Position numbers and translations under genes: made by a program. The notes beneath the pieces were generated by a model, which was not told the DNA's origin, did no database searches, and was given only the letters and a program-made list of their open reading frames with translations. Shown in pieces: positions 9,151 through 45,536 of a stretch of 64,000 nt of DNA; within the stretch, counting starts at the first letter, position 1, and each line of letters starts with the position of its first letter. The stretch is from Azolla caroliniana. Taxonomy: Eukaryota > Plantae > Polypodiophyta. Location: positions 7,812,001 through 7,876,000 of the forward strand of contig JBHGNT010000022.1 in assembly GCA_043228905.1 (NCBI GenBank), read 5' to 3'.

Positions 9151-10439
9151 TGTCATGATATGGCAAGACACGAACCCATGACCTTATGGTATATGGGTCG
9201 AGCTCTTAACCATCACACCATCTATTGTAATTCATAGGATATTATTTTCATTTATGTTTTACTATAAGAAAGTAATGTATATTCCAAATTTCTCTGGAAC
9301 ATTCTAGAAGTTTCAGGATTACTCCTGACAACACTATAAAAGAAGGCACTAGGCGTTATGTTGAACCAAATTGGTTCAACGCCAGTCTTAAGCCTCTCAG
9401 TCGCTTGTACTTATCTTTTCACATAAAATATTAGCTGTTGTCATCATCTTTCTCTCTCTCATCCTCGCTATCTCTCTCCTCTTCTCACTTCCTCTCTCGG
9501 GAATCTTACGCAATCCCGTCCTCTTAGTACTAATAGTACTTCTCTTCTTAGTACTAATTCCATCTCTGCTTTAGTGCTATTCCTGACATGGCAAGACTCG
9601 AACCCATGACCTTATGGTATATGGGTCGAGCTCTTAACCATCACACCATCTATTGTAATTCATAGGTTTTTTTTTATTTTTTATGTTTTATTATAAGAAA
9701 GTAATGTATATTCCAGATTTCTCTGAAACATTCTAGAAGTTTCAGGATTACTCCTGACAACACTATAAAAGAAGGCACTAGGTGTTATGTTGAACCAAAT
9801 TGGTTCAACGCCAATCTTAAGCCTCTCAGCCGCTTGTACTTATCTTTTCACATAATATATTTAGCTATTGTCATCGTCTTTCTCTCTCTCATCCTCGCTA
9901 TCTCTCTTTCTCTCTCGGGAATCTTACGCAGTCCCGTCCTCTTAGTACTAATAGTACTTCTCTTCTTAGTACTAATTCCATCTCTGCTTTAGTGCTATTC
10001 CTGACATGGCAAGACTCGAACCCATGACCTTATGGTATATGGGTCAAGCTCTTAACCATCACACCATCTATTGTAATTCATAAGATATTTTTTTTTTTAT
10101 GTTTTATTATAAGAAAGTAATGTATATTCCAGATTTCTCTGGAACATTCTAGAAGTTTCAGGATTACTCTTGACAACACTATAAAAGAAGGCACTAGGTG
10201 TTATGTTGAACCAAATTGGTTCAACGCCAGTCTTAAGCCTCTCAGCCGCTTGTAGTTATCTTTTCACATAATATATTAGCTATTGTCATCATCTTTCTCT
10301 CTCTCATCCTCGCTATCTCTCTCTCTCTCCTCTTCTCACTTCCTCTCTCGGGAATCTTACGCAGTCCCGTCCTCTTAGTACTAATAGTACTTCTCTTCTT
10401 AGTACTAATTCAATCTCTGCTTTAGTACTATTCCTGACA
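9151..10439 (+). repeat. Three head-to-tail LTR copies (9151-9588, 9589-10006, 10007-10439)
   Basis: Each unit ends TATTCCTGACA and contains TATAAAAG and the GTTGAACCAAATTGGTTCAAC palindrome. Confidence 0.95.
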
Positions 10440-10453
10440 GTTTGAACCAATTT
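10440..10453 (+). promoter_or_regulatory. Primer-binding site complementary to the LTR's own predicted +1 region (self-priming type)
   Basis: TTGAACCAATTT (10442-10453) follows the LTR end after GT and is the reverse complement of AAATTGGTTCAA in each LTR (e.g. 9368-9379). There is no TGG tRNA-type PBS. Confidence 0.8.
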
Positions 10454-10483
10454 TTCCTTTCCTCCTACCCTTTTCCCTATACT

Positions 10484-11552
10484 ATGGCTACTGTTAGCGC
10501 CCAAGAATATGAATCCGTTTTCTCCGAGTTACAATGCCTAAAAGAAAAGTTTGTTGCTCTGGAACAAGAAAACCAACGGTTGATAGGGGATCTGCAACAA
10601 ATCGCTCTCGAAAAACAACAAACGCAACAACAACATGGGGAGTTAGCATTACGGGTACAACAACTCGAAGCAACGTTGCAACTACAAGGATGAAGTCCCC
10701 AAGGATTTCATTTAAGAGCCCAATATTGGACTTCCTGTGAAATTTGATGGAACGCGATCGCAATTCTGGGGATTCCTTAATCAGGTACGCTTAGTCATCC
10801 AGATGCATCCTTCCCGATATCCCACTGATGCGTCTCGAGTCGGCCTAATAGGCACGTTACTTAGCGGCTCTGCCTTGGCATGGTTCGCTCAGCTTCTAGA
10901 AAAACAATCACCCTTGCTTAATAACTTTGAATATTTTATTGGTGAGTTTAAATCCTGCTTTGGAGATACTGACAGCATCAGGACGACGATGAAGAAGATC
11001 CGAAGATTGCGTCAAGGCGATCGTCCAGCCTCTGCCTACGCGGCGGATTTCCATCTACTCGCCTCAGATATTCCCTGGGATGATCAGGCCCTCATGAAGC
11101 AGTTTGGCTACGGCTTGCGCAATGATGTCAAAGATCTGCTTTTAACCTTCCCCGAAGAACCAAAGTCGCTTACGGAGGCAATCAGTCGAGCGGTCTGATG
11201 TGACAACCGCCTTTTCAAACGGCGTTCGGAGCGTCAGTTACAAATACCACGCTCTTGGCCGGAACCCACATACGCCTCAGTAACGGCTAAACCGTTTGCA
11301 CGCGATGTACCTCAAGCCAATATTCCGACACCGATGGAGATCGACACCATGCGTCAACACGGCCCGTTATCGGAAGAAGAAAAGCAACGACGACGTGCCA
11401 ATCGATTATCTCTTTATTGCGGTGGACCAAGGCATATCGCCATCAATTGTCCCCATAGGCCAAGAAGACAGGTAAATCAAATCATCGCTTGTACTAAAAC
11501 CGAGTCTATTCTTCCCTTCGGAGTGTCTGATAGTATTAATAGTACTAATAGA
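10484..11552 (+). pseudogene. gag: Degenerate Ty3/Gypsy gag (capsid + CCHC knuckle relic)
   Basis: KFDGTRSQFWGFLNQVRL..SRVGLIGTLLSGSALAWF..LRQGDRPASAYAADF; PMEID; RLSLYCGGPRHIAINCP; several stops. Confidence 0.9.
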
Positions 11553-11553
11553 C

Positions 11554-11997
11554 TGTCAGGAATAGTACTAAAGCAGAGATGGAATTAGTACTAAGAAGAG
11601 AAGTACTATTAGTACTAAGAGGACGGGATTGCGTAAGATTCCCGAGAGAGGAATTGAGAAGAGGAGAGAGAGAGAGATAGCGAGGATGAGAGAGAGAAAG
11701 ATGATGACAACAGCTAATATATTATTTGAAAAGATAAGTACAAGCGGCTGAGAGGCTTAAGACTGGCGTTGAACCAATTTGGTTCAACATAACGCCTAGT
11801 GCCTTCTTTTATAGTGTTGTCAGGAGTAATCCTGAAACTTCTAGAATGTTCCAGAGAAATCTGGAATATACATTACTTTCTTATAATAAAACATAAATGA
11901 AAATAATATCCTATGAATTACAATAGATGGTGTGATGGTTAAGAGCTCGACCCATATACCATAAGGTCATGGGTTCGAGTCTTGCCATATCATGACA
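11554..11997 (-). repeat. Inverted copy of the 9151 LTR
   Basis: TGTCAGGAATAGTACT...CATATCATGACA is the full-length reverse complement of the LTR. Confidence 0.95.
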
Positions 11998-12355
11998 CAT
12001 AATAAGGACTCAAGAGGCATTGGATTGCTTTGAAAAGATGAGGAAACATTGTTGCCTCTTGCCACATGCATTTTCATTGTCTTGTGGGTTGAAAGCTTGT
12101 GGAAGCTTGAGAGATAGACAAAAAGACCGAGAAATACATGCCGACATCGTCAAAATAGGTTTTGAAAAAGATGTCCTTGTTGATAACACAATAGTCAACA
12201 TGTATGTGAATGGTGGGTTATTGTCGATTGCGCACTACTTGTTTAACACTCTAGTGGTGTGAGATGTGGTTTCACTAAACTCATTGATGGTAAGAAATGC
12301 CAAACAAGGGCATAACAAGGAGCCTATTTTTTGTTTTGAGGAGATGGTTTCAAAA
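11998..12355 (+). pseudogene. PLS-class PPR pseudogene fragment, 3' part
   Basis: EALDCFEKM..FSLSCGLKACGSL..REIHADIVKIGFEKDVLVDNTIVNMY..A.YLFN..DVVSLNSLM (ORF 12020..12262). Confidence 0.85.
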
Positions 12356-12646
12356 CGGGGGTTTACATATCCAGCGACTACAGATAGTGTGTGCTTTTTA
12401 CAATATTACAAATATTTTCTTGAAATGTAAATAATTTTCAAATTCTAGAAGTATTTTACGTACTATACGTAAAATACGTATTTTATGTATTTTATAAGTA
12501 TTTAAAATATTACAAAACGTATTTAACGTATTTTTAAATTGGGAGGTATTATACGCGTATTAATACGTTATATATGTATGGTATCCGTACCGTACCTAAC
12601 AACCATGCGAGTGATAATGAATTATCGCATTGCCAATTGATGGCAT

Positions 12647-17994: not shown

Positions 17995-20900
17995 TGTTGT
18001 AATAAACTAATTAGTGTAGAATAAATAAATAGGAAACTAAATAATAAAAACGTAACCTTATGATATGAAAAGGTGCACCCCAAAAATAGGGTGCACCTAT
18101 AACCACCACATTTTCTCTCTGTGTTGTCGGTTGGTTGTAAGAGAGTGACAGAAACTATCATTCAATTAAGTTTTCTTCTTCTCTTTCTCTCTCTTTCTCT
18201 CTCCCTCTCTTTCCATTCCATATTCCCTTATTTTCCACGTGGTATCAGAGTAGTGAAGGAGTCCAACCCCACCAAGAATTGTGTCGCGGTGTTAATAACG
18301 AACGTGTGAATTAAAGAAATGTTTTTCGACCATGTCAAACAGTGGAGTGATAGCAAATGTGGCGGCAAATGCTGCCCAGGTATCGTCTCACACTTATCAC
18401 ATTGAAAAACTAAATGATAAAAACTATCAACCATGGCGTATGACCATGGAAATTATATTAGAACAACATGACTTGTTAAATATCGTCGATGGAACCGACG
18501 TGTGCCCTAACATTAATGTCCCCACAAATGCACTTGACGTTCAAACATGGAAGCGGCGTGATTTAAACACTCGCTTAGAACTTCTCCTTCATATGGAGGA
18601 CACACTTAAGCAAAGTGTGAGAACCTTGACTACCTCCAAACATATATGGGATAGATTAGAGGCTGATTACCTCCATATGGATATTACGTCCCAAGTTGCA
18701 AATTTAAAAATTTAATAAATATGAATATGAATGAAAATGATGATGTTGATACATTTGTTAAAAATTGGAGACTTCGACTTGATGATGTGATCCTTTCAGG
18801 ACTTAGTTTGCCAAGTTCTGTTCAATCTGCCCTCTTGTTAGCCGCCCTACCCCCATCATGGCAACCATTTATAAGTACAAAATCCACATCAGCCAACATT
18901 AGTGTCCCAACATTAGTGGCATCAATCTCACAAGAAAACATACATCGTAGGGCAATAAATCAACCATCCTCATCTCACACCGCACTTTATATCAAACATC
19001 CAAATTACAATAAAAAAACCTTACAATAAACCTAGATCAACATACCAACCTAATAACTCCAAATTTTATTCACGGACTTCTAAATTTAATGATTCAAGGA
19101 ATCATAAAAAATCTAGGTTCCTTAGATCCTTTTGTACAAATTGTCAAAGGAGTGGACATGAAACAAAAGATTGTTATAGGAATCCTAACAATGGGAAAAG
19201 AACATATAAAGAAGACCAATCTTACAATGCATCACGTGATGACTACGATCAAAATAATGACATATGTCATGGTGACCAAAATTCCGATGAGGATAATGAA
19301 GACTCTTTCATTGCCTTCATGGCCCTCACTTCATTTAACAACTCTCCCACTTCAACGTGGATTCTTGATACAGGTGCCACATGTCACCTCACCTCAAGAG
19401 TTGAATGGCTCAAAGACTATAAGGTCTTAGAGCATCCTTTCCCGGTTAGATTTGGGAACAATGGGGTTGAATATGCCCTTGGACATGGGACTGCCCATCT
19501 TGAACTTTTTTATGGGAACTTCATTGAAATCAATGAAGTTTACTATATACCTAACATAGCAAAAAACGTGATATCTGTCAATAAATTCACAAATGATAAT
19601 ACATCCGTCTAGTTTTATCACAAATATTGTATCATTCGTCATAAGACACCCTCTGGACAAGGCTATGTCGTTAACTGTCCCAGACAAGGATGTCTTTACC
19701 TCTTAGGTCGCTCTGTGGTACTTGCCGAAGAAGCTACCACATGGATGATTCAAACACATCCAACTATATGACCTTATTATGGCACTATCGATTAGGCCAC
19801 TTAAACCATCAAACAATGGTTCACATGGCCCGACAACATATAGCAGTTGGTTTTACTCTTCCTAGTAAATCGAAACTATCCCTTTGCGAAGGGTGTATAT
19901 TTGGAAAACTCTCTAACTCGCCATTTCCATCCCATCCTACAACGGCCACTAAACCCCTCCAACTAGTGCACATAGATATATGTGGTCCTTTGTCTACCCC
20001 ATCCCTATCTGGAAATGTATATTTCCTAACATTTATCGATGACTTTACTCGTTTCACGATGGTCACATTTCTCAAGACAAAATGTAGTGATCAAGTCCTT
20101 GAGAAATTCAAAGCCTATCATAAACTTGCAACAAATCAACAAGAATTACCCCTTAAAGTACTCCAATCAAATAATGATGGAGAATTCAAGTCCCAAAACT
20201 TCCAAACGTATTGGCAAAATCATGGGATTCAACAACGATTTACCATTCCATATACACCCCAACACAATTCAAGGGCCGAACGACGAAACCGGTTGTATAT
20301 GGATGCCACTCGTTGCATGCTCGTCGTTGTAAACCTTCCCCGAACATATTGGGAAGAGGTTGTTTTGACCGCTTGTTATATATTCAATAGAACATATAGT
20401 CAATCAATTAGCACAACTCCATTTTCCTTGTGGTTTGGAAAAAATCCAAATTATAAACATCTAAGAATCTTTGGATGTCCATCATATGCACTCGTACCGC
20501 TAGAAACTCGATCAAAATTAGATAATCACGCAGTTTGCACAATATTTGTTGTGTATGGCGAACCTCATGGCTATAAGGGTTATCGTTTATACGACCCAAA
20601 ATACAAAAGATTTATATTTAGCCGACGAGTGATATTTGATGAAGACAGATTGATATCTAATCCTCATTCACATCATGGCTATGAAAAGATACAAGACGCG
20701 ACTACCATGTCTAACACTAAATCCAATAACGAAGTAATATCATCACCTACTAATTCTTGGCGGGCTCCACAAATGTCCTCGGAAATTCAACAAGTCACAA
20801 TTAACTCTCCTCCATTAATGCCCTCATCTCTAGAGGTCCTCCCACAAGTCTCAGGTTCAACCAATGACTCCAACTTATTGCCTTTAATAACCAAACAATC

Positions 20901-22991
20901 CCAACAAATTGATGTACATACTCCAATTTTAAACAGTAACCCCAACCAAAGTAAAAAGAGCCTTAATAATCACCATAGCATTCATAAGGAAAAACTTTTA
21001 GATGGAACACAACTGACTCATATTGATTATTCATGCTCCCATCCTATCAAAAATCTCCTTATTCCACTACGACGATCCTCACATCTTAATGGCAAGTTGA
21101 AAACCATTGGTCACAATGATGCAAAAGTAATTAAAATAGGATGTAGAAATACTTCATATTCCACTAATAATCAACATGTAGAACATACAAATAGTTCTGA
21201 CATTGCGTAATCAACTAGTTCACTTAGCTCTACATCTACTCCAAAGAAAGTTCGTACTATTCAAGATCTTTATGATCAAACAAAAAAAATAGACGCTCTT
21301 GTTGCGGACCATCAATTTGAACCTGAGTTTGCATTTTCGGCTCTTGGTTCCCCCTCAACCACATCAGACATTTCTGATGATCCCTTAACTATCAATGAGG
21401 CATTGCAAAGCCCAGATCATAATGAATGGCAAGCTGCCATGGCAAAAGAACTTGAATCTCTTGAGGCCAACAAAACATGGACCCTAGTACCACTCCCAAT
21501 GGGATGCTCACCTATTTCATGCAAATGGGTGTTGAAGAAAAAACTAAACCCTGATGGTAGTGTTGCACGTTACAAAGCTCGACTTGTCACGCGTGGTTTT
21601 TCTCAAGTTGAAGGACTTCACTATTCTGAGACATTCTCACCCGTTCTTCGCATGGCATCTTTTCGGTGCCTAATGGCTCTGGCCACCATTCTTGACCTCG
21701 AGGTACATCATTTGGATGTATAAACGGCATTTCTACATGGTGATTTACCCGAAGAAATCTACATGTCACAACCTCCTGGGTTTGAGTCACACTCTCAACC
21801 AAACTATGTGCGTCGGTTACATCGGTCGCTTTATGGACTCAAACAATCTCCTAGGTTATGGTTTCAAAATTTTAACAATTTTATGCTCTCACATGGCTAT
21901 TCTAGATTGTTATCAAAACCAAATATATACATTTGACATAATCATACATCTAATCGGTTGTTAGTGGTAGCACTATATGTGGATGACATTCCTATAGTTG
22001 GAACACCATCTGAAATTACTCAAGCAAAGCTAGAACTTTCCAAAGCATTTTCAATAACAGATTTAGGTCCCCTATCTTATTTTCTAGGCATGCAATTTAT
22101 GCGTAATCGTAGTATGGGCACCTTGATCATTCATCAAAATAAATTCATTAATGAAATTTTGAAATCCTTCGGAATGTTAAACATTAAACCTTGCCCTACT
22201 CCCTTATCACTAACATGTAACTTAAGCATATCCGATGGTCCAACCACAAAAAGAGATATTAATTTTATGCAACAATTTCCCTTTAAACAATTCGTTGATT
22301 CTCGAAGATCTACTACTGGTTTTTCTTTTATAATGCCAGGAGCAGCAGTGATGTGACAATCGAAAAAACAAGAATCTGTGACACTCTCATCTGCTGAAGC
22401 TGAATTTGTAGCAGTGGCATTGGCTGCTAAAGAAGGATTATGGTTGCAAACAGTGTTATAAGAACTCCAACTATGTGAACCACTCCAATTGAAAATCTTC
22501 TGCGACAATATATCATGTATCTACTTAACGAAGAATCCAAAGCACTCGGAGAAAACAAAACATGTGGATTTAAAATATCACTTTATACGAGAGTTGGCCG
22601 AAGAAAACAAGCTTACCTTAGAGTTTACATCGACAAATCATATGTGGGCTGATTTTCTAACAAAGGCTCTACCTCCGGACAAATTTGAAGCTTGTTGTGA
22701 AATTTTAGGATTACAACGATTCACAACTAATTAGTTTATGGGGGGTTGTTGTAATAAACTAATTAGCGTAGAATAAATAAATAGGTAACTAAATAATAAA
22801 AACGTAACCTTATGATATGAAAAGGTGCACCCCAAAAATAGGGTGCACCTATAACCACCACATTTGCTCTCTGTGTGGTCGGTTGGTTGTAAGAGAGAGA
22901 CAGAAACTATCATTCAATTAAGTTTTCTTCTTCTCTTTCTCTCTCTTTCTCTCTCCCTCCCTTTCCATTCCATATTCCCTTATTTTCCACA
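17995..22991 (+). mobile_element. Ty1/Copia 'B' with both 245-bp LTRs (17995-18239, 22747-22991), TSD GGCAA; gag-PR-INT-RT-RH decayed
   Basis: PBS TGGTATCAGAG (tRNA-Met) at 18240; G-rich PPT before 22747; motifs IEKLNDKNYQPWR, WILDTGATCH, LWHYRLGH..CEGC, LYVDD, KHVDLKYHFIRE; ~7 LTR mismatches. Confidence 0.96.
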
Positions 22992-25860: not shown

Positions 25861-27174
25861 TTCGAGTGTCAGCACTTTGGTCAGCATATCTGACCCGTTC
25901 TCCTCCGTGTGGATCTTTGTCAGCACGAACTCCTGATCTTCAACTCGCTCCCGGATCCAGTGGTACCTACGCTGGATGTGCTTTGTCTTGGAATGATACG
26001 CCGCATTCTTCGCAAGGTGGATGGCACTTTGACTATCACAATAGAGTCGGTATTCCTCTTGTCGGATCCCTAGCTCTCCGATGAAGTCCTTCATCCATAG
26101 TATTTCCTTGCCGGCTTCCACAACTGCCACGTATTCTGCTCCCGTGGTTGACAACGCAGCCATCTTCTACAGCCTCGACTACCACAAAACAACTCTCCCC
26201 GCGTATGTCATGGCATATCCGGATGTGGACCAGCTGGAATCCGCATCAACCGACATATCTGAATTGGTGAAACCGGTAAGTTGGGGTTTACCGGAGCCGA
26301 ATCGGAGACACATACTTGAGGTGCCTTTCAAGTATCAGAGTATCCATTTTACCGCGTTCCAATGCTCCTTGTCGGGATTGCTCATAAACCGGCTCACCAC
26401 TCCAATTGCATATCCGATATCTGGTCGAGTACACACCATTGCATACATTAAGCTCCCGACGGCAAAGGCATATGGTATCTTCATTATATCTGCCTTCGTC
26501 TTCGGCCTTTGCTTACCGGATAACCTGTAGTTTGTCGGGAGTGTCGATCCGACCAGTTTCGCATTTGACATGTTGAACCACTGAAGCACCTTTGTCACGT
26601 ACTTCTCTTGTGACAGCCATAATTTCTTCTTTGGTCAGTCCCGGATTATATGCATCCCCAGTATCTGTCTTGCCGGACCCAAGTCTTTCATTGAGAAGGT
26701 CCGGTTCAGAGCCTTCTTCAGCGTTCGTATCTTGACTTGGTCTCGTCCGACGATCAACATGTTGTCCACGTACAGGAGGAGTATCAGGAAGTCTCCACCT
26801 TCAAACTTCTTCACAAACACGCAGTGATCGGCCTACATCTTGTGGTATCCTTGATCCGTCATGAAGGAGTAGAACTTCTGGTACCATTGCTAGGGAGCCT
26901 GCTTCAAACCGTAGAGGCTCTTCTTCAACCGGAAAACCAAGTGCTCCTTCCCTTTCTTCACAAATCCCTCTGATTGCTGCATGTAGATCTCCTCTTCGAG
27001 GTCACCGTGGAGGAACGTCGTCTTCACGTCTAACTGCTCTACCTCGAGGTCCATGCTTGCCGCTATGCTCAGCACCATCCGGATGGAAGTAATCTTTACT
27101 ACCGGGGCAAATATCTCGTCGAAGTCCACTCCCTTCTTCTGTTGGAACCCCTTCACCACGATCTTGGCTTTGTA

Positions 27175-27340
27175 CCTTGGGAGGTTGCTAGCATCTCCCG
27201 GTTTCAACTTGTACACCCAATTATTCTGGAGTGCCCGCTTTCCTTTTGGCAACTCCACCTTGGGAGGTTGCTGGCATCTCCCGGTTTCAACTTGTACACC
27301 CAATTATTCCGGAGTTCCCGCTTTCCTTTTGGCAACTCCA
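27175..27340. repeat. 83-bp tandem duplication inside the Copia C RT
   Basis: GAGGTTGCT..CAACTCCA occurs at 27181 and 27264. Confidence 0.9.
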
Positions 27341-28333
27341 ATTCATACGTCTGGTTCTCATGCAGGGAATCCATCTCGTCCTGCATGGCATTCAACCACG
27401 TGCGGCTGTGGGTGTCCTCCTTTGCTTCTTCGAAGCTTTCCAGCTCCCCCTCATCGGTCAGCAACACGCGCTCTGCATCCGGAAATCTCTGGGGGGGCCT
27501 TCTCTCTCAAAGAGAATATCTGTGTCTTTGTTTCCGACAACCGGCTCCTCAGTTTGTTCTTCATCCGAATCCAATTCGGGATCTTGGCCGGTTACGATTC
27601 CTGCTTCCTCTTCTTCTTCTATTGGTTCGGTGTCCTCTCCGTAACCGGTTGGTTCTTCGAGTTTCAACCGACTCTTAGCCGGGTAGGTCCGTATTTCATC
27701 GAATCGGTCCTTTTCGGTCGACTCGGAGTTCATTATCTTCTTCTCCGACTCCCAATCGTCAAGAGTCTTGTCCTCCATGAAGATAATATCTCGACTCCGG
27801 AAAACCTTCTTGTCGACCGGATCCCGCACTCAGTAGCCGAACTCATCATCGTCGTATCCGAGGAATATGTTGTCAAGACTGAGAGAGAGAAAGAGAGAGA
27901 AAAAGAGATCGAGAGATAATTGAAAGAGAATTATTATATTGAAGTGTAAAATGGATTACAAAGAGTAGGCTACAAAATGGCGTTGAACCAATTTAGGTTT
28001 AGGATGGGTGGTAGATCCCTATTAATAAGTAATAGAGAACACTCTAGAATATTCTAGGTTATCCTAGAATATAGAGTAATCTAGAAGATCTCTATAGTAT
28101 TCTAGAAGGTTCTTGTGGTATAGAACACTCTAGAATATTCTAGGTTATTCTAGAATGTAGAGTAATATAGAATATTCCTATGATATTAGATTTCATATTC
28201 TAGGGACTATACATATAAGAATATTAATACAATGGTTAAGGATTTGACATGTGTACAACAAGGTTGTGGGTTTAAATCCTTTCGAGTCATAATGTGAGTG
28301 TCATGATCCTTTCGATGCATGATGTGAGTCTTA

Positions 28334-28579
28334 TCATGACACTATCCCCCTTCTTTGACGACACGTTTCACGGGTTGTAGGGTTTGTATTCGGACCTGGT
28401 TTACAAGGATATTGGCGATGAAATGCATTGACGAGTTCTGCAACATTGGAAAGATTTGCAGCAAGTTCCCAAGTTCGATCATTGGGGGTATAGCCTAGCC
28501 AATCGACTAGGTAATACAACTTTTTGTGCACGATTTTAGAATCGAGAACGGCAGCAACTTCAAATTCAGGCCCGTCCAA
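28334..28579 (-). pseudogene. Integrase C-terminal chromodomain
   Basis: EFEVAAVLDSKIVHKKLYYLVDWLGYTPNDRTWE..NL, with aromatic-cage positions F, W, Y present. Confidence 0.9.
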
Positions 28580-28978
28580 GAACTCGACAGGTGGTGGGGG
28601 TGTCGTATGACGGCTCGAATTGAACTTGTAGTATAAGGTTCCAAAAGGGATACATGAAACACCGGATGAAGATGCATGTGCGGAGGGAGGTCAAGACGAA
28701 ATGCAACATCACTTATCTTACCAGTGATCATGTAAGGGCCAAAACGTTGGTAATCCAATTTACTGCAAGGTCGAGAGGTCTTGATGTTGTGTTGGAGAAG
28801 CCATACATGATCCCCAATGCGGAACTTTTTTGAGGAGTCTAGACAATGATGATCGGCAAGCCTCTTGTCTATAAATTGAGCATCGTGCAAATTGTGGATA
28901 ATGTTAGCTTGAATTTCTTGGAGGCGGCTAAGAAGATCCTCGGCAGCAGGGTTGGTAGGAACTTCTGGATGTGCATTC

Positions 28979-29689
28979 TGACAGGAACAACACGCTTCGA
29001 TGAACACCGCTCGGCCACAACCAAGCTTAGAATCAAACACAGAAAACAGGGAATGAAAAACACGACACAAAGGAGAGAAGAGTACACATGATGTTTAACG
29101 TGGAAAACCATGAGAGGGAAAAACCATGGGAGTCCATAGACTCCAAACTATCACTATATCACAATGATTAAAATAGTGAGCTCACGGAGGCAACGACCTC
29201 TTCCTCTCTCTCTCTCTCTCTCTGTACACTGTTACGCGCTCTCTAGTCTTGCGCCAACAAGAATGACAATAACACTTTACTAAGTTTGCCCTAAGTCATA
29301 TTTATACTAATATGACTTTTTGGCTATTTACAAATATAGCTCCGATGGACTCTTAGAAAACATATTTACGAATATGTCCCTTCATCCAGTGAGCACTTCT
29401 CACCGGGCCTTCACCATCCGGCTGTTGCCGGGTACTCCTCATCCGGTTCTCACCGGGCCTTCACCATTCGGCTCTTGCCGGGGACTCCTCATCCGGTTCT
29501 CACCGGGCCTTCACCATCCGGCTCTTGCCAGGGACTCCTCATCTGGTTCTCACCGGGCTTTCACCATCCGGCTCTTGCCGGGTACTCCTCATCCGGTTCT
29601 CACCTGGCCTTCACCATCCGGCTCTTGCTGAGTTTGCTCATCAATACTGTTCTTCTCACTTCCCATCCGGAGGGACCTTTTTCCTAACA
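28979..29689 (-). mobile_element. Solo LTR (Copia C-related family), TSD CATTC, inside the chromovirus integrase
   Basis: TG..CA ends; CATTC at 28974-28978 and 29690-29694; shares TGGAAAAC..GGAAAAACCA and CCCATCCG..GGGACC..TCCTAACA with 33325-33899. Confidence 0.92.
29396..29628. repeat. 50-bp tandem repeat (~4.7 copies) in the solo-LTR U3
   Basis: CACCGGGCCTTCACCATCCGG (with variants) at 29401, 29451, 29501, 29551, 29601. Confidence 0.92.
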
Positions 29690-32600
29690 CATTCATCGTC
29701 CACCAAGGATGACAGCCCGTATTTGCGAAAAATGGGGAATATACTGTAGAAGAATGGGCTGAGTTGTTGTAAGAGAATTCCGCCAAGTGCAAAAAATCAA
29801 CCCAATCATCTTCTTGATAGTTGATGAAACAACGAAGATATTGTTCCAATGTCTGGTTGGTACGCTCTGTTTGGCCATTTGTTTCAGGATGATAGCCCGA
29901 AGAAAGCTTAACTGAAATGTGGAGAAGTTTGAACAGGTGCTTCCAAAACTTTGAGATGAACTGTGGACCATGATCACTAATAATATCATCAGGCATACCA
30001 TGATGCTTAAATACCTCCCGCATAACGAGATCAACCACCTCTTGACTAGTAATCGACTTTGTACATGGCAAGAAATGTCCATAGCGTGTGCGGAAAGCTG
30101 TGTTCCATTCATCCCCCGGGCGAATCCGAACTAGATTATATGCTCTACGAAGGTCCAACTTCGTGAAATATTTTGCACCATTGAGACGTTCCAAAAGATT
30201 CGGGATTAATGGTAGAGCATATTTATTCCGGATAGTCACTTTGTTTAGCCCTCGATAATCCACGACCAACCGAAGAGTCCCATTCTTCTTCTTAACGAAG
30301 AAGATAGGTGCACCAGCAGGGGATCTAGAATGCTGAATGAATCCATTTACCAAATTCTCATCAATATATTCCCGCAAAGTCTATAGCTCTACAGGGGAGA
30401 GATTATAAATTGGGCCACATGGAGGTTCTTTCCTTGGTTGTAAGTCAATAGGGCAGTCGTATGGCCGATGCTCCAGCAATGTATTGGCCTTCACCTTATC
30501 AAAGACATCTGAAAACTCCTTCTATTTCTCTGGTAGTTTAATGTCCGCTTCACATGAAGTAGATGATGGAGTTGCAATTATTGTGAAGACGAACATGGCC
30601 TCGTTCCCCCCTTCCTCCCGCAACTGTCGTAAAGAGATGCGCGATAACTCTGGGGGATCTATTATCACATGTAGGAGAGAGGGATGCGGGGTTTGTGCTT
30701 TTTTCCCGGGTCTCCTCAATTGTTCTTTTCATCCAATCAAGTGAGTCGAGTTTTTTCAGCACAAGTCGAGCTTTGTAGCCTACTCTTTGTAATCCATTTT
30801 ACGCTTCAATATAATAATTCTCTTTCAATTATCTCTCTATCTCTTTTTCTCTCTCTTTCTCTCTCTCAGTCTTGACAGTTTGAACCAATTTAGGTTTGGG
30901 ATGGGTGGTAGATCCCTATTTATAAGTAATAGAGAACACTCTAGAATATTCTAGGTTATCCTAGAATGTAGAGTAATCTAGAAGATCTCTAGAGTATTCT
31001 AGAAGGTTCTAGTGGTATAGAACACTCTAGAATATTCTAGGTCATTCTAGAATGTAGAGTAATATAGAATATTCCTATGATATTAGATTTCATATTCTAG
31101 AGACTATACATATAAGAATATTAATACAATGGTTAAGGATTTGACATGTGTACAACAAGGTCGTGGGTTCAAATCCTTTCGAGTCATAATGTGAGTGTCA
31201 TGATCCTTTCGATGCATGATGTGAGTGATATCATGACATATGCAAGGCTGGGACTTTGGGTCCAACTTTGCTCTCCGGTCCTTTGCCACATGCACGTAAG
31301 TGAGACACCCGAAAACCTTCAGATGCCGGTAAGACACTTCATTACCGGTCCACACTCTCTACGGCGTGTCTCTGTCCAAGGGCACTGAGGGTGATCTGTG
31401 TATCACGTACGTCGCTGTCAGCAGTGCCTCAGCCCAAAACGTCTTGGGTAACTTTGCATGTGCTAGCATACTCCGGACCCTCTCCATTATGGTCTGGTTC
31501 ATCCTCTGGACCAGCCCATTTAGTTCCGGCGTCTTCGGCATGGTAAATTTGAGCCGGATGCCCTTCGAGCGGCAGTACTCCTGGAAATGCCCCCGCCCGA
31601 TATTCTCCTCCGTTATCTGCTCGAACCGCCTTCAGCTTCCAACCGGTTTTTCTTTCCACTCTCGCGTGGAGCTCCTTGAAAACAGATAACACCTGATCCT
31701 TCGTCTTCAGCAGTGTGGCCCACAGCTTCCAGTTGTGGTCATCTATGAACGTCACGAAGTACTCGATCCGGCATGTGACTTCATGTCCACTGGACACACA
31801 TCGGTATGCACCAACTCTAGTGGTACATTATGTCTCATTGGTGGCCTTGATTGGAAGGAGGTCTGGTTTTTCTCATCGGCCAGGCAGTCGGTGCACTTCT
31901 CAAGGTGCACGTCTTTCACCGGAATGAGGTTGTCATCAACAAGCCTCTTCATCCCCTTCTCATTCATGTGACACATTCTCTTGTGCCACAACTCACCCGC
32001 AATGTCGGATGCAACGTTCACTTCTTTTCAGGATAATCGGGCATTCATTAGGCACAGTGTGTTGACTTTCCGGGCCTGAGCCACTATTAGGCTCCCTTTT
32101 GCAGAACTTCATGACACTGTTCCAGATGCTACCTATGTAGCCTTGATCATCTAGTTGACCGGTTGATATCAGGTTCAGTCGAACCTCCGGAACATGTCGG
32201 ACATCCTTCAGCAGCAACTTGCATCCGGTTGATGTCGTCAACAACACATCTCCTATGCCGATAATTCGGCATGTCCCTTCATTCCTCATCCGGACACAGC
32301 CGTGCTCACCGGCTGTGTACGATGAGAAGCATTTCCGGTCCAGGGTCAGGTGGAACGACACTCCGGAATCGACAACCCACGTTGTCTCGTCGCCGGCAAT
32401 GTTCAACTCACTCTCCTCGGTGATGAGCATCAACTCTTCTTCACTTGCCGCGATTGTTGTCGTTCCCTTTCAGTCCGGTCCCCTCCGATCTTTACCGTTC
32501 CGGTCCGGTGACCGCTTCGAATTAGTACTGTCGGTTTCCTTGTCTTTTCGGAAGTGCCGACAGTTCCTCTAGAAGTGTCCTAGCTTGCCACAATAGAAGC

Positions 32601-35139
32601 AAGTAGGCCTCCCCCTTGACTTTGACCGTGTCCCCGACTTTTCCTGGTTCTGGGGACTACGGTTCCTTTGTCTTCCGCATTCCGATTCGGTAAGGAGCGC
32701 TTTGGAGTCGGAGATCATATCTTTGTCTTTCTGACGCGCCTCCTCATCTAGCAAGCTCAACTTGACTCTTGCTAGGGATAACTGTTTTCCTTCCAGCCCG
32801 GCGTTACCCAAAGTGACAACTAATGTCTCCCAGCTATCCGGGAGGGAACCGAGCAGGAGTAGTGCTAGTACCTGATCGGCTAGAGGTACTTCCAACGATG
32901 TTGCCTGGTGAATCAGCCCCTGGAAGGCATTCATGTGCTTTGCCATACTGGAGCCTTCTTGGTACCGGAGCCTCACTAGCTTCCGAAATACCGAAACCCG
33001 ATTAACAACATTTTTGTTCTGAAACATAATGCCGATCTTCTCCCAGAGTTCATGAGCCTTGCTCTCCTCATTGAAGTTGTTGTACAGGCTCATGTCGATG
33101 AAGCACCAGATGTAAGGTGTTGTCTTCATGTGCATAACCTCCCACACTGTGGCGTCGATCTTGTCTAGTCTTTTGTCCCCGAACTGAGCCGGCAACCAAA
33201 GATCTTTCACAACGAGCATGTCCCTCATCTTCGACTTCCACATTGAGTAGTTGGTGCCGGTGAGCTTGAACATGCCTCCCAACGAATCTTCCATTTTCTG
33301 TGTCGTTTCACTCTAATACCAGTTTGTAGAGAATATGCAGAATAATCTTCGGCCACAATTGAGACTTAGATCACTTAATGATAATTAAACACAGAAGAAA
33401 TGAGAAATGGAAGTAAGTACAGAAACAGAAGAGAATGCACAGGATGTTAACATGGAAAACCCTAAACGGGAAAAACCACGAGAGCCCACAGACTCCAAAC
33501 TATCACTATGTCGAGAGGAATACAACAGGTAAACATGGAGGCAGCGACCTCGTACTCACACTCTTCTTCTGGCGGTGGTTACAACAGAGACTTACTCTAT
33601 TTCTCTCTCTCTCTCTCTCTGTTACGCTCTGTATAGCAGTTACACTCAATAACTCTATACAAAATAATGACAACACACACAGTTACTATTTGCCCTAGGT
33701 CATATTTATACTAATATGACTTTCGGGCTAATTACAAATATAGCCCTTGTGGGCTCTTTGGAACATATTTACATATATGTCCCTTCATCCGATGAGATGT
33801 TCTCATCGGGCCTGCAACATCCGGTTCTCATCGGGCCTTCATCATCTGATTCTCACCGGCCCTTCATCATCCCATCCGAAAGGGACCGAAATCCTAACAT
33901 TAGGATTCATGTCTACCATGCGAAGTTGAAACATATTGAGGTGTGGTTTCATCATATCCGAGAGCTTGTAACAGAGAAGAAGCTTGAAGTCGGGAAGGTC
34001 GACATCAAGATGAGCATCGTTGATTTCTTGACGAAATCAGTCCCATATCAACGCTTCAGAGCATAGAGGTTAATGAGGGGATTAAGACAAGCGACAGAGT
34101 AGAAGAGAGTTGAACAAACAATCGTAGCAAGTAAGTCGATGACCAACTCGATTGGATAAACCGAAGAAGCAAAGTCCAAAGAATCGGAAAGGCAAAAGGC
34201 TAAGGACATAGCCTAGTGCGAGGATGTCAAATGGAAAGAAAACGATCGACGGACGAGCAAAGCCAAAGATAGATCGAGGATCCAACGGGGAGGACAAGAG
34301 CCAGCCGATCAAAACGAACGAGCCGATTTGGATGCAAGACAATTCAAATCCACACGATCCAATTGACCTAATCCTGCCGAACTAGGCTAGATTCTGACTT
34401 TACCTCTACAGACTCGGTGGAATGTTGACTACCTTGTATGTATACAATTGTAACTTTAGATCAAAACTGTAATCTAGGTTCACGGGGGAGATAACCCCAA
34501 TTATTTGTATACATAGGAAGAGTAGACCTTTTAGGGGGGAGTTTGTTGGTATAACAGGCTAACTCCTTCCACTTTGTATACTTAATGTAAACACATCTTC
34601 GAGTTAGGGGTTCTGTATATATATAAGCCCAACTGTAACATTGTGTGAGAGAGTGTTTTTTCATAAGAGAATAAACAGAGTCTCCATTAGAGCTTAACTA
34701 TGTCTATCCTACCTTCTATTTTCTATTTTCATTCATATTCTGTCTGTGTTGTTTGTTGCACACATTTTCTATAGGTCCTCACATATTCTTCTGCACATCA
34801 TATTCTATAATATATTCTATATTGAAGTACATATTTAAACACATCACTTATCATGTGTCTCTTTTTTGCTATTTAAGAATTTTCGCAAGACCAATATCTA
34901 CTACCAATCAAACAACATTTTGGGTGTCCTAAAAGCTCGTAAAAACATGCCTTCTCTAGACATTGGGACAAAGAATTAGGGTGATTACAGAGAGAGCCAG
35001 AGATATGTGCGATAATTTAGATATAATAAGGGTTTCTATGTAGATTTAAATCAATTCCCATAGATTTTGTGGAGATAAGAAATTTGGATGGTTGTCTACC
35101 ACCTCCAATGTGGCTCAATCGCGTTAACTCTTAGTGTTT

Positions 35140-39870: not shown

Positions 39871-41400
39871 TAAATCAAACCATTTTTGACATAAATTCAT
39901 ATGTATGTTGTCTAAAACAGATCCATAGATTTTAGATAATAAACAGAACCAAAGATTAGACATAATAAACATAACCAAAGATTACACATAATAAACAAAA
40001 CTAGATATTAGTACCAAGGACAAGAAAACATAAATTTACACCGCATTTTTAATGCTTTTTGAAGAAAGATTAGACATAAACGACACAATGCAGTTACTAG
40101 AGTCTCTGGAACATCATAAGAAACGGAAATTTACACCACATTTTCTAATCATATGGAACATTGTTCTCAACTTTTCTGTTGAGGTGAGATAACCCCTAAT
40201 GTTGACTTGATGCCCAACTGAAAACTGTGCACCATACACCTTAACATATGTGAGGGAGCCAAAATTTCCTTACCATGTTCATTTTGTAACAACATGCTAA
40301 ACTCCTTTGCAATTGCTTGTGCATCACTAGCTCCATAAAAAGTTGTTGCTAATAATCGATTGGAAATCGAACTCGACAAAAGAGAGCATGTGCACAATGT
40401 TTCCATGATCCAACACCTGGAAATACATGCACAAAATCCAATATCATTGATCTCGAGCCCTAGGGCCTAAATTTGACAGGTTAATATTAAAGTTTTTTGA
40501 CGACCATTTTTTAAAGATGTATGTCATATGCCATAATAGTGCAAAAACTAACAAGTCATTTGACTAACAAATTTTTAAAATGAAAGGCCTATATAATGCA
40601 ATAAATATTGTTACCCATTTCATCACTATCAAAAGTATGCAAAGATAGACAAATTAGCATAATTATATTACAAAGCTAATGAGACCCATAAAATAAATAT
40701 CATGTTAATGTTTTTTAAGCCAAAGCACAAACAAGCTATGTATCTATTTTTAGGGTAGTGTAAACTTACATATTATAGTGTAATGTTTTTTTCCAAAAAA
40801 TATAGTGTAAAATTAAATATGTACGCTCACACTATGATATTTACTATCCATGTTTCTTTATTAAACGAAAATTTCTAATAAAAGATAGTAATAAGCATGA
40901 CAGAAATAGGTTTAATAGTTCAAACTAAAAAAAAAAACCTAGAGTCTAGACTCTTAGAATATTTAATAAAGGTTTTTCCGTAAATTAAATTTTAAGTTAC
41001 TTTTTTTTTCCAAAAATAAGTTTCAACCAACATTTTTAGTAAAGAATAAAGATTTAAGAATATTGTCATATATGTATGACGTGGCAATTCTTGAACCAAA
41101 CTGATAGTTTGCCAAGATTGATAAAACGGTTAAAGAATGAAACGGATGTAATAGAATACTATAAATAGAAGTACAAACCTGAGGCTAAGGACAGGCTATT
41201 TTGGGGAGAAACAATTCTGTGTATTTTACATTGGTGGAGACGACGGGAGATCAACCACCGGCCACTCTGCACATCGCAACAGCCGCCAAGAAACAGCCGC
41301 CCAGCCACAAATAGAAGAGCCGCCCAGCCACAAATAGAAGAGCCGCCCATAATTGCCCTCACGTTCAGCCCATCAGCCTTCACCACACAAAGTAATCAAA

Positions 41401-42378
41401 ATGCAACAACAGGAAGGCAACGACACAAGCATGCAACCTGAATTCGGCGAACATACGTCGATGCATACAACCATGGAGCAAATGTTCCAAGCAATGTCTA
41501 CAATGATGATTCAGGTAAATCACACAAACCAAGCACTCATGACATGGCTCACCTCTCAATCTCAATCTACAGGAACAATGAATGATCAGAAAAAAGATTC
41601 CCGAATACGTCCAAGATCATTCTCGGGCCTCCCCACAGAGGATGTCCTAGCTTGGCTAGATCATTTTGACCTTGTCGCAGGTTATCACGATTGGAATGAT
41701 CAAAGAAAGGCATTGGAGCTGCGGACAGTATTAGAGCATGTCGCCGCCACATGGTTCATACAACAACCGGAGGAGATCAAGAATGATTGGCCCTATTTGC
41801 GGGAGCAGCTCATACAACATTTCGCCAACAACGACGTGATGCAATCCGCACTACAACAACTGAATAGTCTCCGTCAGCAACCCAATGAGCCGGTGGCACA
41901 ATTCGCCGTAAAGCTAAAGCAACTACTACTTCGAGTCGACCCCAACATGAAGGAGACCATGAAGTTGTACTTCCTACTACCACGGCTGCGACATGATCTT
42001 TATCGGCGCGTTCGAGATCAAGGACCGACATCATTTCATATGGCAATCCAAATCGCTCAACGGATTGAGGCACCCGATTACATAGAGTTACCGCCATCCA
42101 CACAACCCCCGAGCAATAATCATCAGAAACAACCAGATAATTCCTCGGTTTCACCAATGGACATCGACGTACAAAACGTACAGTTCAGTAGGAAAAATAG
42201 CTTACCTGATCGTGATTCTAACGGCAAGCCGCGTTGTTTTTACTGTAATTCATATGGCCATGTTAAGAAACATTGCAGAAAATTGGCGGCATCTAAACAT
42301 CATCAGAATACTCAAGTCCAATTGGCTGATTTGACGTCACTTGCCGAGGTACAGGGAAACCACCAAGCGGGAAACTGA
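41401..42378 (+). CDS. gag: Gag (capsid + CCHC CFYCNSYGHVKKHC), open
   Basis: ORF 41353..42378, first ATG 41401; FSGLPTEDVLAWL, LRQQPNEPVAQF, PMDID. Confidence 0.9.
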   Translation: MQQQEGNDTSMQPEFGEHTSMHTTMEQMFQAMSTMMIQVNHTNQALMTWLTSQSQSTGTMNDQKKDSRIRPRSFSGLPTEDVLAWLDHFDLVAGYHDWNDQRKALELRTVLEHVAATWFIQQPEEIKNDWPYLREQLIQHFANNDVMQSALQQLNSLRQQPNEPVAQFAVKLKQLLLRVDPNMKETMKLYFLLPRLRHDLYRRVRDQGPTSFHMAIQIAQRIEAPDYIELPPSTQPPSNNHQKQPDNSSVSPMDIDVQNVQFSRKNSLPDRDSNGKPRCFYCNSYGHVKKHCRKLAASKHHQNTQVQLADLTSLAEVQGNHQAGN

Positions 42379-45300
42379 TGGAGGAGCAGCTACCGCACAT
42401 TCAAGTCGCAACCTCCTCCAAACGACTGGTATGTTCCACATTAGCACAGATAGATAACACATCACAGGAGGCTCTCTTAGATTCAGGAAGCACAATCTCC
42501 TCTATTAGCATAGATTTAGTCAATTCATTAAACTTACCCACATCCCCAGCAGCACAAATACAAGTAGTTTTTGGCGATAAACAACAAACCTACCGATCAT
42601 CTACACAAGCACATTGTACTTTCTTTTTAGCACAACATAAGTTCCTACATTCCTTTTATGTATTACCACGCCAATTATTTCCCATGACATTAGGATGCGA
42701 TTGGTTTATCAAAACTGGAGCGCAACTACATTTTGATACTCAATCGCTAGTTTTGCCATCCCTTAAGCCGTTCACCACGATTCCCTTGTTTAGCTCACCA
42801 CAACTTAGCAACCACATAATGCATACACAAGTTCATCTAGAATCAACCACGGTACGTACTGCCGACATCCGCCGACTCTTGCGGGAATTCCCGACATTAT
42901 TTCGCAAGACAACGACCACGACGCAAATCAATTTGCCTGTCCAACATACAATCCCGACAACCACAGGACAACCAGTTCGGATGGCTGCCAGACGACGCTC
43001 TCCCTTGGATAATCAAAGGATCAATCAAGCAGTAAGAGACATGCTGGACAAGGATATTATAGAGCCATCGAGTAGTGATTGGGTCTCGGAGCCGCATTTG
43101 GTGCGCAAGGACGATGGCACTTTTCGTTTTTGCATCGATTTCCGTCCTTTAAATAAGATTACCAAGCACGACCTATACCCGCTGCCACGCATAGATGATC
43201 TATTGGATCAAGTCGGGAAGTCCAAATACTTCACATCATTAGACCTCGCATCAGGCTATTGGCAAATCCCATGAAGCCCTCAAGACAAACACAAAACCGC
43301 TTTTAGGACGCAACAGGGTTTATTTCAGTTTAAAAGAATGCCTTTCGGCCTATCTGATGCGGGGAGCACTTTTCAGAGGATTGCGAATTCAATATTTCAT
43401 GACTTGATCCAAGAAGGAGTGGTACTAGTATATCTAGACGATATTCTAATTCATACACCAGAATGGGAACAACACATCCACATTCTGCGGGAGGTTCTAC
43501 ACATGATACAAAAATACAACCTACAACTCCAATTGAAGAAGTGCCAGTGGGGCGCTGCTACATTAAAATTCTTAGGTTTCATCATATCCGCCACAGGGAT
43601 CAGCATGGACCCGGCCAAGATCAAAGCAATTACCAATTATCCGCCGCCAACAAATGTCAAGTCGCTCCAAAGCTTCTTAGGTCTTGTCAACTTCTCCCTC
43701 CGGTTTGTCCCACAACTCGCAACCATCACGCAACCATTACGCCTCTTATTGAAGAAGGACACACCATTCTCTTGGTCCAAGGCTTGCATAGAAAGTTTTC
43801 GACAAATCAAGAGAATTATTCAAGAGGCCGCCCAATTAGCATTCCCAGATTTCAGCAAGGCATTTCGCCTACAAACGGACGCATCAAATTAAGGAATTGG
43901 TGCTGTTTTACTACAGCAGGATCACTCTGATGATTGGCGACCAATCGCCTACATTAGTCGAGCTCTCACAAAGGCCGAACTGAACTATTCAACTACAGAA
44001 AAGGAATTCTTGGCAGTAGTTTGGGCTTTCCAAAAATTTCACCCATATTTGCATGGGACCACAGTTCAGGTCGAAACAGACCATCAACCCTTAGTATCAT
44101 TGATACACAAGAGCCATCCTCCGGGTCGTCTGTTGCGCTGGGCATTAGCATTACAAGAATACAGATTCACCATGACCTACAGACGTGGCATCACTAATAT
44201 AGTAGCTGATTCACTATCTCGCATAGAGCATCAGGCATCCCAGATCAATGAGCAAACCGAGTTACCAATCCATCCACATCAAGTAGCTCAGTTTCAGCAG
44301 CAAGATCCGATGATTAGAGATATTATCTTGCGTCTTCAGTGTGGACGGGATCAACAGGTCAATCGTAACTTCATCATCATCAATAACATATTACACTTTG
44401 TCAGTCAAGGACAACCCCCACGACTTTATGTCCCAGAAGCGCTACGTTCAACATATTTGGAGTTCTATCACAGCAACCAACTAACCGGACACTTTGGTTT
44501 TCATAAATTATTACACCGTATCAGATCTTTATTCTATTGGCCCAAACTTCGCCATTCAATCTCTCGATTTCTACAAGCATGCCCAACATGCCAATCAATG
44601 AAATCACCACAACAAGCATCTGGCATTCTACAACCTATCACAGTCAAGGAACCCTTTGAATTACTGGGCTGGGATCTAATGGGTCCCTTTCCAACTTCAG
44701 TAAATGGTAATAAGTACATTTTGGTCATAACAGAATATCTCACACGTTGGTGTGAAGCAGCCGCATTACCAGATGCCACAGCCCATTCTGTGGCTCAAGC
44801 ATTGCTTCATAAAGTAATCTTCCCTCATGGCTGCCCTCAACAACTTCTATCGGATCAGGGATCACAATTTCGCAGCGAGGTACTTCAAGTGCTCAGCCAT
44901 AGCTTGGGAATTAAGCAAGTGTTTACATCACCCTATCATCCACAAACAAATGGCTTGACGGAGCGCATGAATAAGACAATCAAACAAGTTATTTCCACAT
45001 ATGTGGATCCATTGCATCAGTCGTGGGATCAGGTTTTGCCCTTCGCCGTTCACGCATACAACACCTCGGTCCAAACATCCACCAAAATCAGCCCTTTTCG
45101 AGCTTTGTACGGCCGTGACCCGCGCCTCCCACTGGATATCCATAACGTGAAAGTGCAACCCCAAAGGAATGACGCAACTGAATGGTGGCTTCATCTCCAA
45201 CTCCATCAACCACTGCTTCGACGCGCGCTCCAACACAATTTACGTATGGCACAACAAAGACAAAAGAAATACTATGACGCATCCCATTTGCCGATGGAGC

Positions 45301-45536
45301 TACAGATAGGAGAGAATGTCAGAGTTTATTATCCTATCCGCAAGCCCGGACTCTGCGAATCCCTCATGCACCGTTGGATCGGGCCATACACAGTCATAGC
45401 GCGCATTGGCACACAAACGTATCGTTTGCGGCGGACAACCAATTCATCCGAAACAGTCGCTCACATCAGTCGGATCAAGCGCATACCATCAATCAATGTT
45501 CCCTCATCTGACCATAATTCGAAGGCATCCTCATAG
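42378..45536 (+). pseudogene. pol: Pol (PR-RT-RH-INT) in the -1 frame; two in-frame stops (43272, 43890), no frameshift
   Basis: LLDSGS, FCIDFRPLN, YLDD, LQTDASN, HHCC, SDQGSQF, WIGPY; ORFs 42378, 43338 and 44010 share one frame. Confidence 0.92.

What the first reader, a model, noticed from the sequence alone, without database searches (positions are those of the whole stretch)
30772..31238. 5' LTR folds back at the self-primer: reads as primer + minus strong-stop DNA
Seen: on the element strand U3 runs to AAATTGGTTCAA, then continues AC-TGTCAAGACTGAGAG.., the reverse complement of PBS-U5-R (30877-30772), before jumping to the end of protease. Gag is gone, while the 3' LTR (27871-28341) is normal. 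Inference: this is the chimera expected if the 12-nt self-primer stayed joined to minus strong-stop cDNA, a possible fossil of self-priming. An inversion between the two 12-bp inverted repeats is the alternative.
Basis: partly seen in the sequence, partly recalled or inferred. Interest (0 to 1): 0.8.

Follow-up and report, generated by a model that had tools for sequence, protein, structure and literature searches.

The report
Self-primer site fold-back in plant retrotransposon
A dead plant jumping gene has its left end folded back exactly at the 12 bases predicted to prime its own copying, and the same join turns up in sequence data from other samples, so it is likely a recurring copying error of self-priming elements rather than a one-off inversion.

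Summary
Observation confirmed, interpretation revised. This is a dead Tcn1-like chromovirus nested in a copia element. Its 5' LTR switches strand at the 12-nt primer/PBS inverted repeat and runs back through GT-U5-R; intact relatives confirm the PBS. Both broken ends therefore look like snapped-back single strands joined by 2-nt microhomology. Contigs carrying the primer junction occur in 3 of 4 runs laid, at about 1-3.5% of normal-junction depth, including diverged low-depth contigs (short contigs, no long reads). A sibling element in the window has a whole inverted LTR and a perfect target duplication, which points to a pre-integration origin. Best reading (0.55): the plus-strand copy of the retained primer likely paired with the primer site in its own LTR. 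Host break repair after insertion (0.25) gives the same sequence and is not excluded. The scan noted similar fold-backs in other genomes and one inverted-LTR copia in this one.

The parts
31239..31243 (-). Left target-site duplication (GCATA) in the integrase region of the host copia element
   Evidence: host copia domains
30892..31238 (-). U3 of the 5' LTR, TATA box starting at 30924
   Evidence: 348/359 to the 3' LTR including the primer; TATA 33 nt before primer
30880..30891 (-). Junction 1: 12-nt predicted self-primer on the minus strand, which is the PBS on the plus strand; strand switch
   Evidence: junction-bearing contigs
30878..30879 (+). GT spacer between LTR end and PBS, present in inverted form
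   Evidence: same spacer in 8 of 8 Tcn1-like loci
30772..30877 (+). Inverted R-U5 (LTR positions 366-471)
   Evidence: 104/106 to the 3' LTR
30772..30773 (.). Junction 2: 2-nt microhomology joining the two inverted pieces
30727..30773 (+).
   Evidence: 45/47 to L009 sense 1355-1401
30727..30740 (-). Junction 3: strand switch at a natural 14-nt inverted repeat (13/14 in L009, 334-nt spacer)
   Evidence: longest of 4 inverted repeats found in L009 60-3999
30073..30740 (-). Protease end and first half of reverse transcriptase, decayed
   Evidence: 93.6% to L009 1703-2369; RVT_1; Ty3 RT best structure match
30073..30082 (-). About 1.5-kb RT-to-integrase deletion at a short direct microhomology (6 nt exact)
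   Evidence: L009 2369 to 3886
28979..29689 (-). Later insertion: 711-nt TG...CA solo-LTR-like piece with GAATG duplication
   Evidence: 68% to 33383-33870
28342..28978 (-). Integrase C-terminus (Tf2-1 SH3, chromodomain) and polypurine tract (28356-28342)
27871..28341 (-). Normal 3' LTR, primer motif at 27994-27983
27866..27870 (-). Right target-site duplication (ACATA, 4/5 match)
9151..11997 (+). Sibling family with the same primer and PBS: three tandem LTR copies, PBS, gag, then a whole inverted LTR (11552-11997) beginning at the GT spacer; CATAA duplicated on both sides

Best explanation
This is a dead Tcn1-like LTR retrotransposon copy whose left end switches strand at the primer/PBS inverted repeat and whose right part switches strand at a second inverted repeat, and both switches likely arose during reverse transcription when free single-stranded DNA ends snapped back. 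Shown: the three junctions, their homologies, the target duplication and recurrence of junction 1. Inferred steps: (1) the RNA primes itself with its first 12 nt, as in Tf1; (2) the primer stays on the minus strand and is copied into a 3' PBS tail on plus-strand strong-stop DNA; (3) because the primer sequence lies inside the LTR, that tail has a perfect decoy in R of a plus strand (its own or another's), pairs there instead of with the minus-strand end, and is extended back over U3; (4) the minus strand, left without its acceptor, snapped back at the best internal inverted repeat; (5) integrase inserted the two LTR ends, and the two loops were opened and joined at a 2-nt microhomology, losing gag. 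The copy is predicted to be a dead end: it has no PBS downstream of its primer.
For: Junction 1 is exactly the 12-nt primer/PBS pair, invariant in 8 of 8 Tcn1-like loci among 20 pattern hits (the other 12 are unrelated) while primer-to-PBS spacers range from 155 to 247 nt in the 3 loci with a full primer. Tf1 retains a single-stranded PBS copy on about 50% of cDNA 3' ends (PMC11042837 passage), and PBS-tailed plus strong-stop DNA is a dead-end product in Ty1/Ty3 (PMC5371799 passage). Recurrence: X5 record 18 (47 nt, 30862-30908, depth 392), X6 records 27 and 25 (depth 265 and 114), X3 record 9 (57 letters laid, 5 differences, depth 15.7); normal forms would give 18/23 or 21/22 mismatches on one side. 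A further X3 contig of depth about 10.7 laid 30870-30903 with different U3 and U5 flanks (my reading of tables 2 and 7) points to a second subfamily. Junction 3 uses the longest inverted repeat in 3.9 kb; 0 of 200,000 random site pairs reach 13/14. The sibling at 9151-11997 starts its inverted LTR at the GT spacer, joins at the best 8-mer match in 1.7 kb of relative L002 (7/8), ends exactly at the LTR terminus and has a perfect 5-bp duplication, which is what a linear cDNA template plus integrase would give.
Against: DNA folding of 3 intact loci does not favour an intramolecular PBS-primer stem (mean pair probability 0.00, 0.09, 0.00), so pairing would be transient, chaperoned or between molecules. 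Host fold-back repair gives the same letters (PMC7467729 section 6), and this copy was clearly damaged or invaded later (solo LTR, RT-IN deletion). Divergence cannot date the event: U3 11/359 against inverted piece 2/106, Fisher p 0.74. No contig meets the tool's 31-letters-each-side bridging rule (impossible on a 60-base stretch), contig depth is not copy number, X2 showed 0 of 8 junction contigs, only 32 of 140 pieces were listed, and library preparation can make chimeras at inverted repeats (PMC10908179 passages). The reciprocal junction was not tested. 0 of 8 metagenome loci and the junction-specific scans showed the junction.
Confidence: 0.55

Rival explanations
1. Post-insertion repair: a double-strand break in or near gag was resected, each 3' tail folded back at the best inverted repeat, the hairpins were opened and joined by microhomology. 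The primer/PBS pair is then only a passive substrate.
For: The two ends are symmetrical fold-backs at the two best inverted repeats. Resection, hairpin formation, flap trimming and extension are shown in yeast (PMC7467729 abstract and section 6). The copy carries other lesions.
Against: It needs flap trimming at both ends, whereas reverse transcription supplies a natural 3' end at the PBS. It does not explain the sibling, whose fold-back stops exactly at the LTR terminus with a perfect duplication instead of running into flank. Junction 1 at about 1-3.5% of depth seems high for a 12-bp AT-rich stem (judgement, no rate measured).
Confidence: 0.25
2. One reading: the junction copies primer plus minus strong-stop DNA. 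The workable form is a truncated plus strand ending at the primer motif that anneals to the PBS of an RNA, copies U5-R backwards, jumps to upstream RNA and then transfers to the minus strand at the 14-nt repeat.
For: Same letters at junction 1. The inverted 47-nt piece lies upstream of the resumption point, where RNA would still be intact.
Against: The copy ends 6-8 nt short of the predicted cut RNA end. It needs a plus strand that stops exactly at the primer and three template jumps. Direct joining of DNA to the capped primer has no known chemistry (my knowledge).
Confidence: 0.12
3. Ordinary inversion between primer and PBS followed by separate inversion and deletion events.
For: Each junction alone is compatible with it; later deletions are common in this copy.
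Against: It needs three independent events with the deletion ends falling inside both inversions; no reciprocal breakpoint survives in the window.
Confidence: 0.04
4. Assembly or library artefact.
For: No run holds this exact copy; library chimeras form at inverted repeats.
Against: The inverted piece replaces rather than duplicates local sequence, differs from the 3' LTR at 2 sites, and sits in a three-junction structure inside a target duplication. Diverged low-depth contigs carry the junction, which a few-percent library chimera of one locus would not give.
Confidence: 0.04

Closest known systems
Tcn1 clade of plant chromoviruses (Neumann et al. 2019, PMC6317226; Novikova et al. 2010, PMC2864245; passages read)
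   Same: Ty3/gypsy order, chromodomain with aromatic-cage residues, no tRNA PBS, PBS complementary to its own LTR; self-priming predicted for the clade.
   Different: The passages read describe intact elements only; no fold-back copies or primer-site junctions. No phylogeny was built here.
Tf1/Tf2 self-priming of Schizosaccharomyces pombe (bioRxiv 10.1101/2022.12.06.519325 and PMC11042837, passages read; Atwood-Moore 2006 seen only as a cited title)
   Same: 5'-terminal primer pairs with a PBS just after the LTR; retained primer is copied into a single-stranded PBS tail that can anneal to homologous DNA.
   Different: In the passages read the tail targets chromosomal PBS homology and makes tandem elements; snap-back onto the primer site in R is not described ('inverted' has 0 occurrences in PMC11042837). 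The primer here is 12 nt with a GT spacer.
Dead-end plus-strand strong-stop DNA of Ty1/Ty3 (PMC5371799, passages read)
   Same: A displaced plus strand carrying a primer copy at its 3' end.
   Different: tRNA-primed elements have no complement of that tail inside the LTR; self-priming elements always do.
Fold-back inversions through ssDNA hairpins in yeast (PMC7467729, abstract and section 6 read)
   Same: Strand switch at short inverted repeats with extension from a 3' end.
   Different: Host repair of chromosomal breaks, usually giving large inverted duplications; here both ends fold back and are rejoined with a deletion.

Membership tests
Chromovirus, Tcn1 clade | Ty3/gypsy order PR-RT-RH-IN with C-terminal chromodomain | tested here: met
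   RVT_1, rve (below curated cutoff, truncated), SH3_Tf2-1, Chromo; intact pol in relative L009; Ty3 RT best structure match
Chromovirus, Tcn1 clade | Aromatic cage in the chromodomain | tested here: met
   F, W and Y at the cage positions read by eye in the translation; positions recalled, not aligned
Chromovirus, Tcn1 clade | RT-RH-IN phylogeny groups with Tcn1 references | not tested
Tf1/sushi self-priming elements | PBS complementary to the first bases of the transcript, no tRNA PBS | tested here: met
   12/12 pairs, mean probability 0.90-0.92 in 3 of 3 intact loci; constant 33-nt TATA spacing. Transcript start is inferred from the TATA box.
Tf1/sushi self-priming elements | Three-duplex 'pretzel' leader | tested here: inconclusive
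   Only the central duplex is clear in pseudoknot-free folds
Tf1/sushi self-priming elements | RNase H cleavage of the leader and priming from it; primer retained on cDNA | not testable with these tools
   Needs particles or an in vitro assay
Integrase-made insertion | TG...CA ends and 5-bp target duplication | tested here: met
   GCATA/ACATA 4/5; sibling CATAA/CATAA 5/5
Simple inversion between inverted repeats | Both reciprocal breakpoints present | tested here: not met
   Reciprocal PBS-UTR side absent in this copy; later deletion cannot be excluded; not tested in reads
Amplified non-autonomous subfamily | All three junctions shared by many insertions | tested here: inconclusive
   Only junction 1 was examined at high resolution; no listed piece bridged junctions 2-3 (32 of 4053 pieces shown)

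The most novel reading that the evidence does not exclude
Self-priming carries a built-in cost: the primer sequence in the LTR is a perfect decoy for second-strand transfer, so a few percent of integrated copies are primer-site fold-backs. These fossils would record primer length and primer retention in plant Tcn1 elements, where self-priming is only predicted, and the U3 palindrome that masks the primer site in the sibling family would be an evolved guard against the error.
Probability: 0.35. Interest if true: 0.65.

Novelty: new variant of a known kind. Interest (0 to 1): 0.45.

Why it matters
Self-priming in plant Tcn1 elements is predicted from sequence only. A recurrent, base-exact junction would give a genome-scale readout of a reverse-transcription intermediate (the copied primer tail) with no active element needed, and would show that integrase accepts misassembled cDNA ends. 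Such copies would also make long self-complementary transcripts (inverted R-U5 against the 3' LTR) that could feed silencing of the family. If host repair is the cause, it is still a measurable hotspot that self-priming builds into every copy. The copy itself is dead and has no evident function.

Tried and rejected
No own genome is held, so genome-wide counting with target duplications was impossible. Pattern scans: viral contigs 0; TATA-anchored junction in metagenomes 0; junction in prokaryote genomes 0; these collections barely sample the host, so they are uninformative. 12 of 20 general-pattern loci were chance matches with no blast hit to the window and were dropped. X5 record 17 and X6 record 26 cross the primer by only 7 letters with 5-6 differences and were excluded as ambiguous. 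Dating by divergence gave no discrimination. Intramolecular DNA hairpin was not favoured in folding. One search listed one opposite-strand joint in 4 runs, none at U3 palindromes; too weak as a library-artefact control. Literature searches for the junction type found nothing relevant; the library lacks most subscription papers, and the primary Tf1 and Ty papers could not be read. No supplements were opened; those of PMC6317226 (PBS tables) may list this family.

Full report
What is there. The element lies on the minus strand from 31238 to 27871 inside the integrase region of a copia element, with a 5-bp duplication matching at 4 of 5 bases. It has RT, integrase, Tf2-type SH3 and chromodomain remnants, and its RT fragment matches Ty3 RT best among solved structures. 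This fits the Tcn1 chromoviruses of non-seed plants, predicted to self-prime (PMC6317226 passages). No tree was built, so 'Tcn1-like' is the safe label. No genome is held for the window.

The 5' LTR follows the 3' LTR for 359 nt (348 identical), then reads AC and the reverse complement of LTR positions 471-366 (104/106). The LTR-end/GT/PBS 19-mer occurs twice in the window against 0.01 expected, once here and once in normal context in a sibling family at 10435-10453. A metagenome scan returned 20 loci, 8 of them relatives, all 8 with the normal LTR-GT-PBS-UTR arrangement.

The 12-mer is a credible self-primer. It lies 33 nt after a TATA-like box in 3 of 3 intact loci with a full primer and in 6 of 6 window LTR copies. 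In RNA folds of those 3 loci all 12 bases pair with the PBS (mean probability 0.90-0.92) although spacers vary from 155 to 247 nt. This is the Tf1 layout (bioRxiv 2022.12.06.519325 passages). The transcript start and cleavage are inferred.

Against intact relative L009 (93.6% over pol), the inverted R-U5 joins through a 2-nt overlap to an inverted 47-nt piece from just before the protease motif (L009 1401-1355). That piece rejoins forward sequence at L009 1703 through a natural 14-nt inverted repeat, 13/14 matched. It is the longest of 4 inverted repeats found in 3.9 kb, and 0 of 200,000 random site pairs reach 13/14. The structure is therefore symmetrical: two strand switches at the two best inverted repeats, joined in the middle, with gag lost. 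That is what two snapped-back single strands would leave after their loops were opened and joined. The inverted R copy ends 6-8 nt short of the base after the primer.

Recurrence. On a 60-base stretch across junction 1, four runs were laid (32 of 140 pieces listed). X5 has a 47-nt contig at 30862-30908, the span expected for junction-specific 31-mers (my calculation), depth 392; X6 has two (depth 265, 114); X3 has one with 5 differences at depth 15.7 and, by my reading of tables 2 and 7, a second contig of about 280 nt and depth 10.7 with other U3 and U5 flanks and a TATA box at the same 33-nt distance. X2, the shallowest, has 0 of 8. Normal forms would mismatch at 18/23 or 21/22 positions on one side. 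Depth ratios to the normal U5-PBS side are 2.3%, 3.5% and 0.9%. Limits: these are contigs, depth is not copy number, none meets the 31-letter bridging rule, and library chimeras arise at inverted repeats (PMC10908179 passages). The diverged low-depth contigs argue that at least some are genomic loci. No run was shown to hold this exact copy.

The sibling. At 9151-11997 a related family with the same primer and PBS shows three tandem LTR copies, PBS, gag and then a complete inverted LTR that begins at the GT spacer and ends at the LTR terminus, with CATAA on both sides. The join falls at the best match to the LTR-end 8-mer in 1.7 kb of relative L002 (7/8). The inverted LTR differs from the direct copies at 8, 17 and 14 of about 430 columns, similar to the 12-19 among them, so it is old. 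A fold-back in the chromosome would run on into flank; stopping at the terminus with a perfect duplication points to linear cDNA and integrase (inference). So this clade does leave integrated reverse-transcription fold-backs in this genome.

Mechanism. Read on the plus strand of the window, junction 1 is R-U5-GT-PBS followed by U3-complement. That is a plus-sense strand whose 3' end at the PBS paired with the primer site and was extended. Tf1 cDNA often carries such a PBS tail (about 50%, PMC11042837 passage citing a paper I could not read), and Ty1/Ty3 accumulate displaced plus strong-stop DNA (PMC5371799 passages). In a self-priming element the LTR itself holds a perfect complement of that tail. 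I give this route 0.55. Against it: equilibrium DNA folds do not favour the stem (0.00-0.09), and divergence cannot date the event (p 0.74). Host fold-back repair after insertion gives the same letters (PMC7467729; 0.25), and the copy has later damage: a 711-nt solo-LTR-like insertion and a 1.5-kb RT-IN deletion.

Novelty. Six full-text searches found no description of primer-site fold-back copies, in a library that lacks most subscription papers. Earlier notes of this scan report related fold-backs in other genomes, in a self-priming animal Gypsy clade and in tRNA-primed families, and an inverted-LTR copia in this genome; I did not check them, and they suggest misdirected plus-strand transfer is not confined to self-primers. 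Verdict: a real, recurrent defective-copy type at the self-primer site, a new variant of known reverse-transcription errors, with a clear counting test; interest 0.45.

Noticed in passing
window 9151-11997: Sibling Tcn1-like insertion with three tandem LTR copies on the left, joined at a short overlap between LTR end and start, and a whole inverted LTR on the right under one perfect 5-bp duplication.
   Followed up: partly
window 9361-9380, 9790-9809, 10206-10225; L002 sense 776-798; L014: In the sibling family U3 ends with a PBS-like stretch directly before the primer, making a palindrome that would mask the primer site in single-stranded DNA; the finding's family lacks it. Possible guard against fold-back.
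   Followed up: partly
window 28979-29689: 711-nt solo-LTR-like insertion with five to six 50-nt tandem units and a GAATG duplication; 68% like 33383-33870 upstream of the host copia gag.
   Followed up: partly
window 1-5782: Tandem satellite of about 345 nt, copies 92-97% identical.
   Followed up: no
window 17995-22990: LTR element with 244-nt repeats (97.5%) followed by a TGGTATCAGAG-type PBS (tRNA-Met type, recalled) and a 5-bp duplication.
   Followed up: no
window 41064-45750: LTR element with short 167-nt repeats (98%) and a polypurine tract.
   Followed up: no
window 27174-27339: 83-nt tandem duplication inside the host copia RT region.
   Followed up: no
run X3, loose end behind 30888: A contig in which LTR end and partial PBS run directly into the primer motif, like a head-to-tail R-U5 join through a PBS/primer palindrome.
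   Followed up: no
window 8900-9150 and 11998-12400: Flanks of the sibling look by eye like decayed PPR-gene sequence.
   Followed up: no
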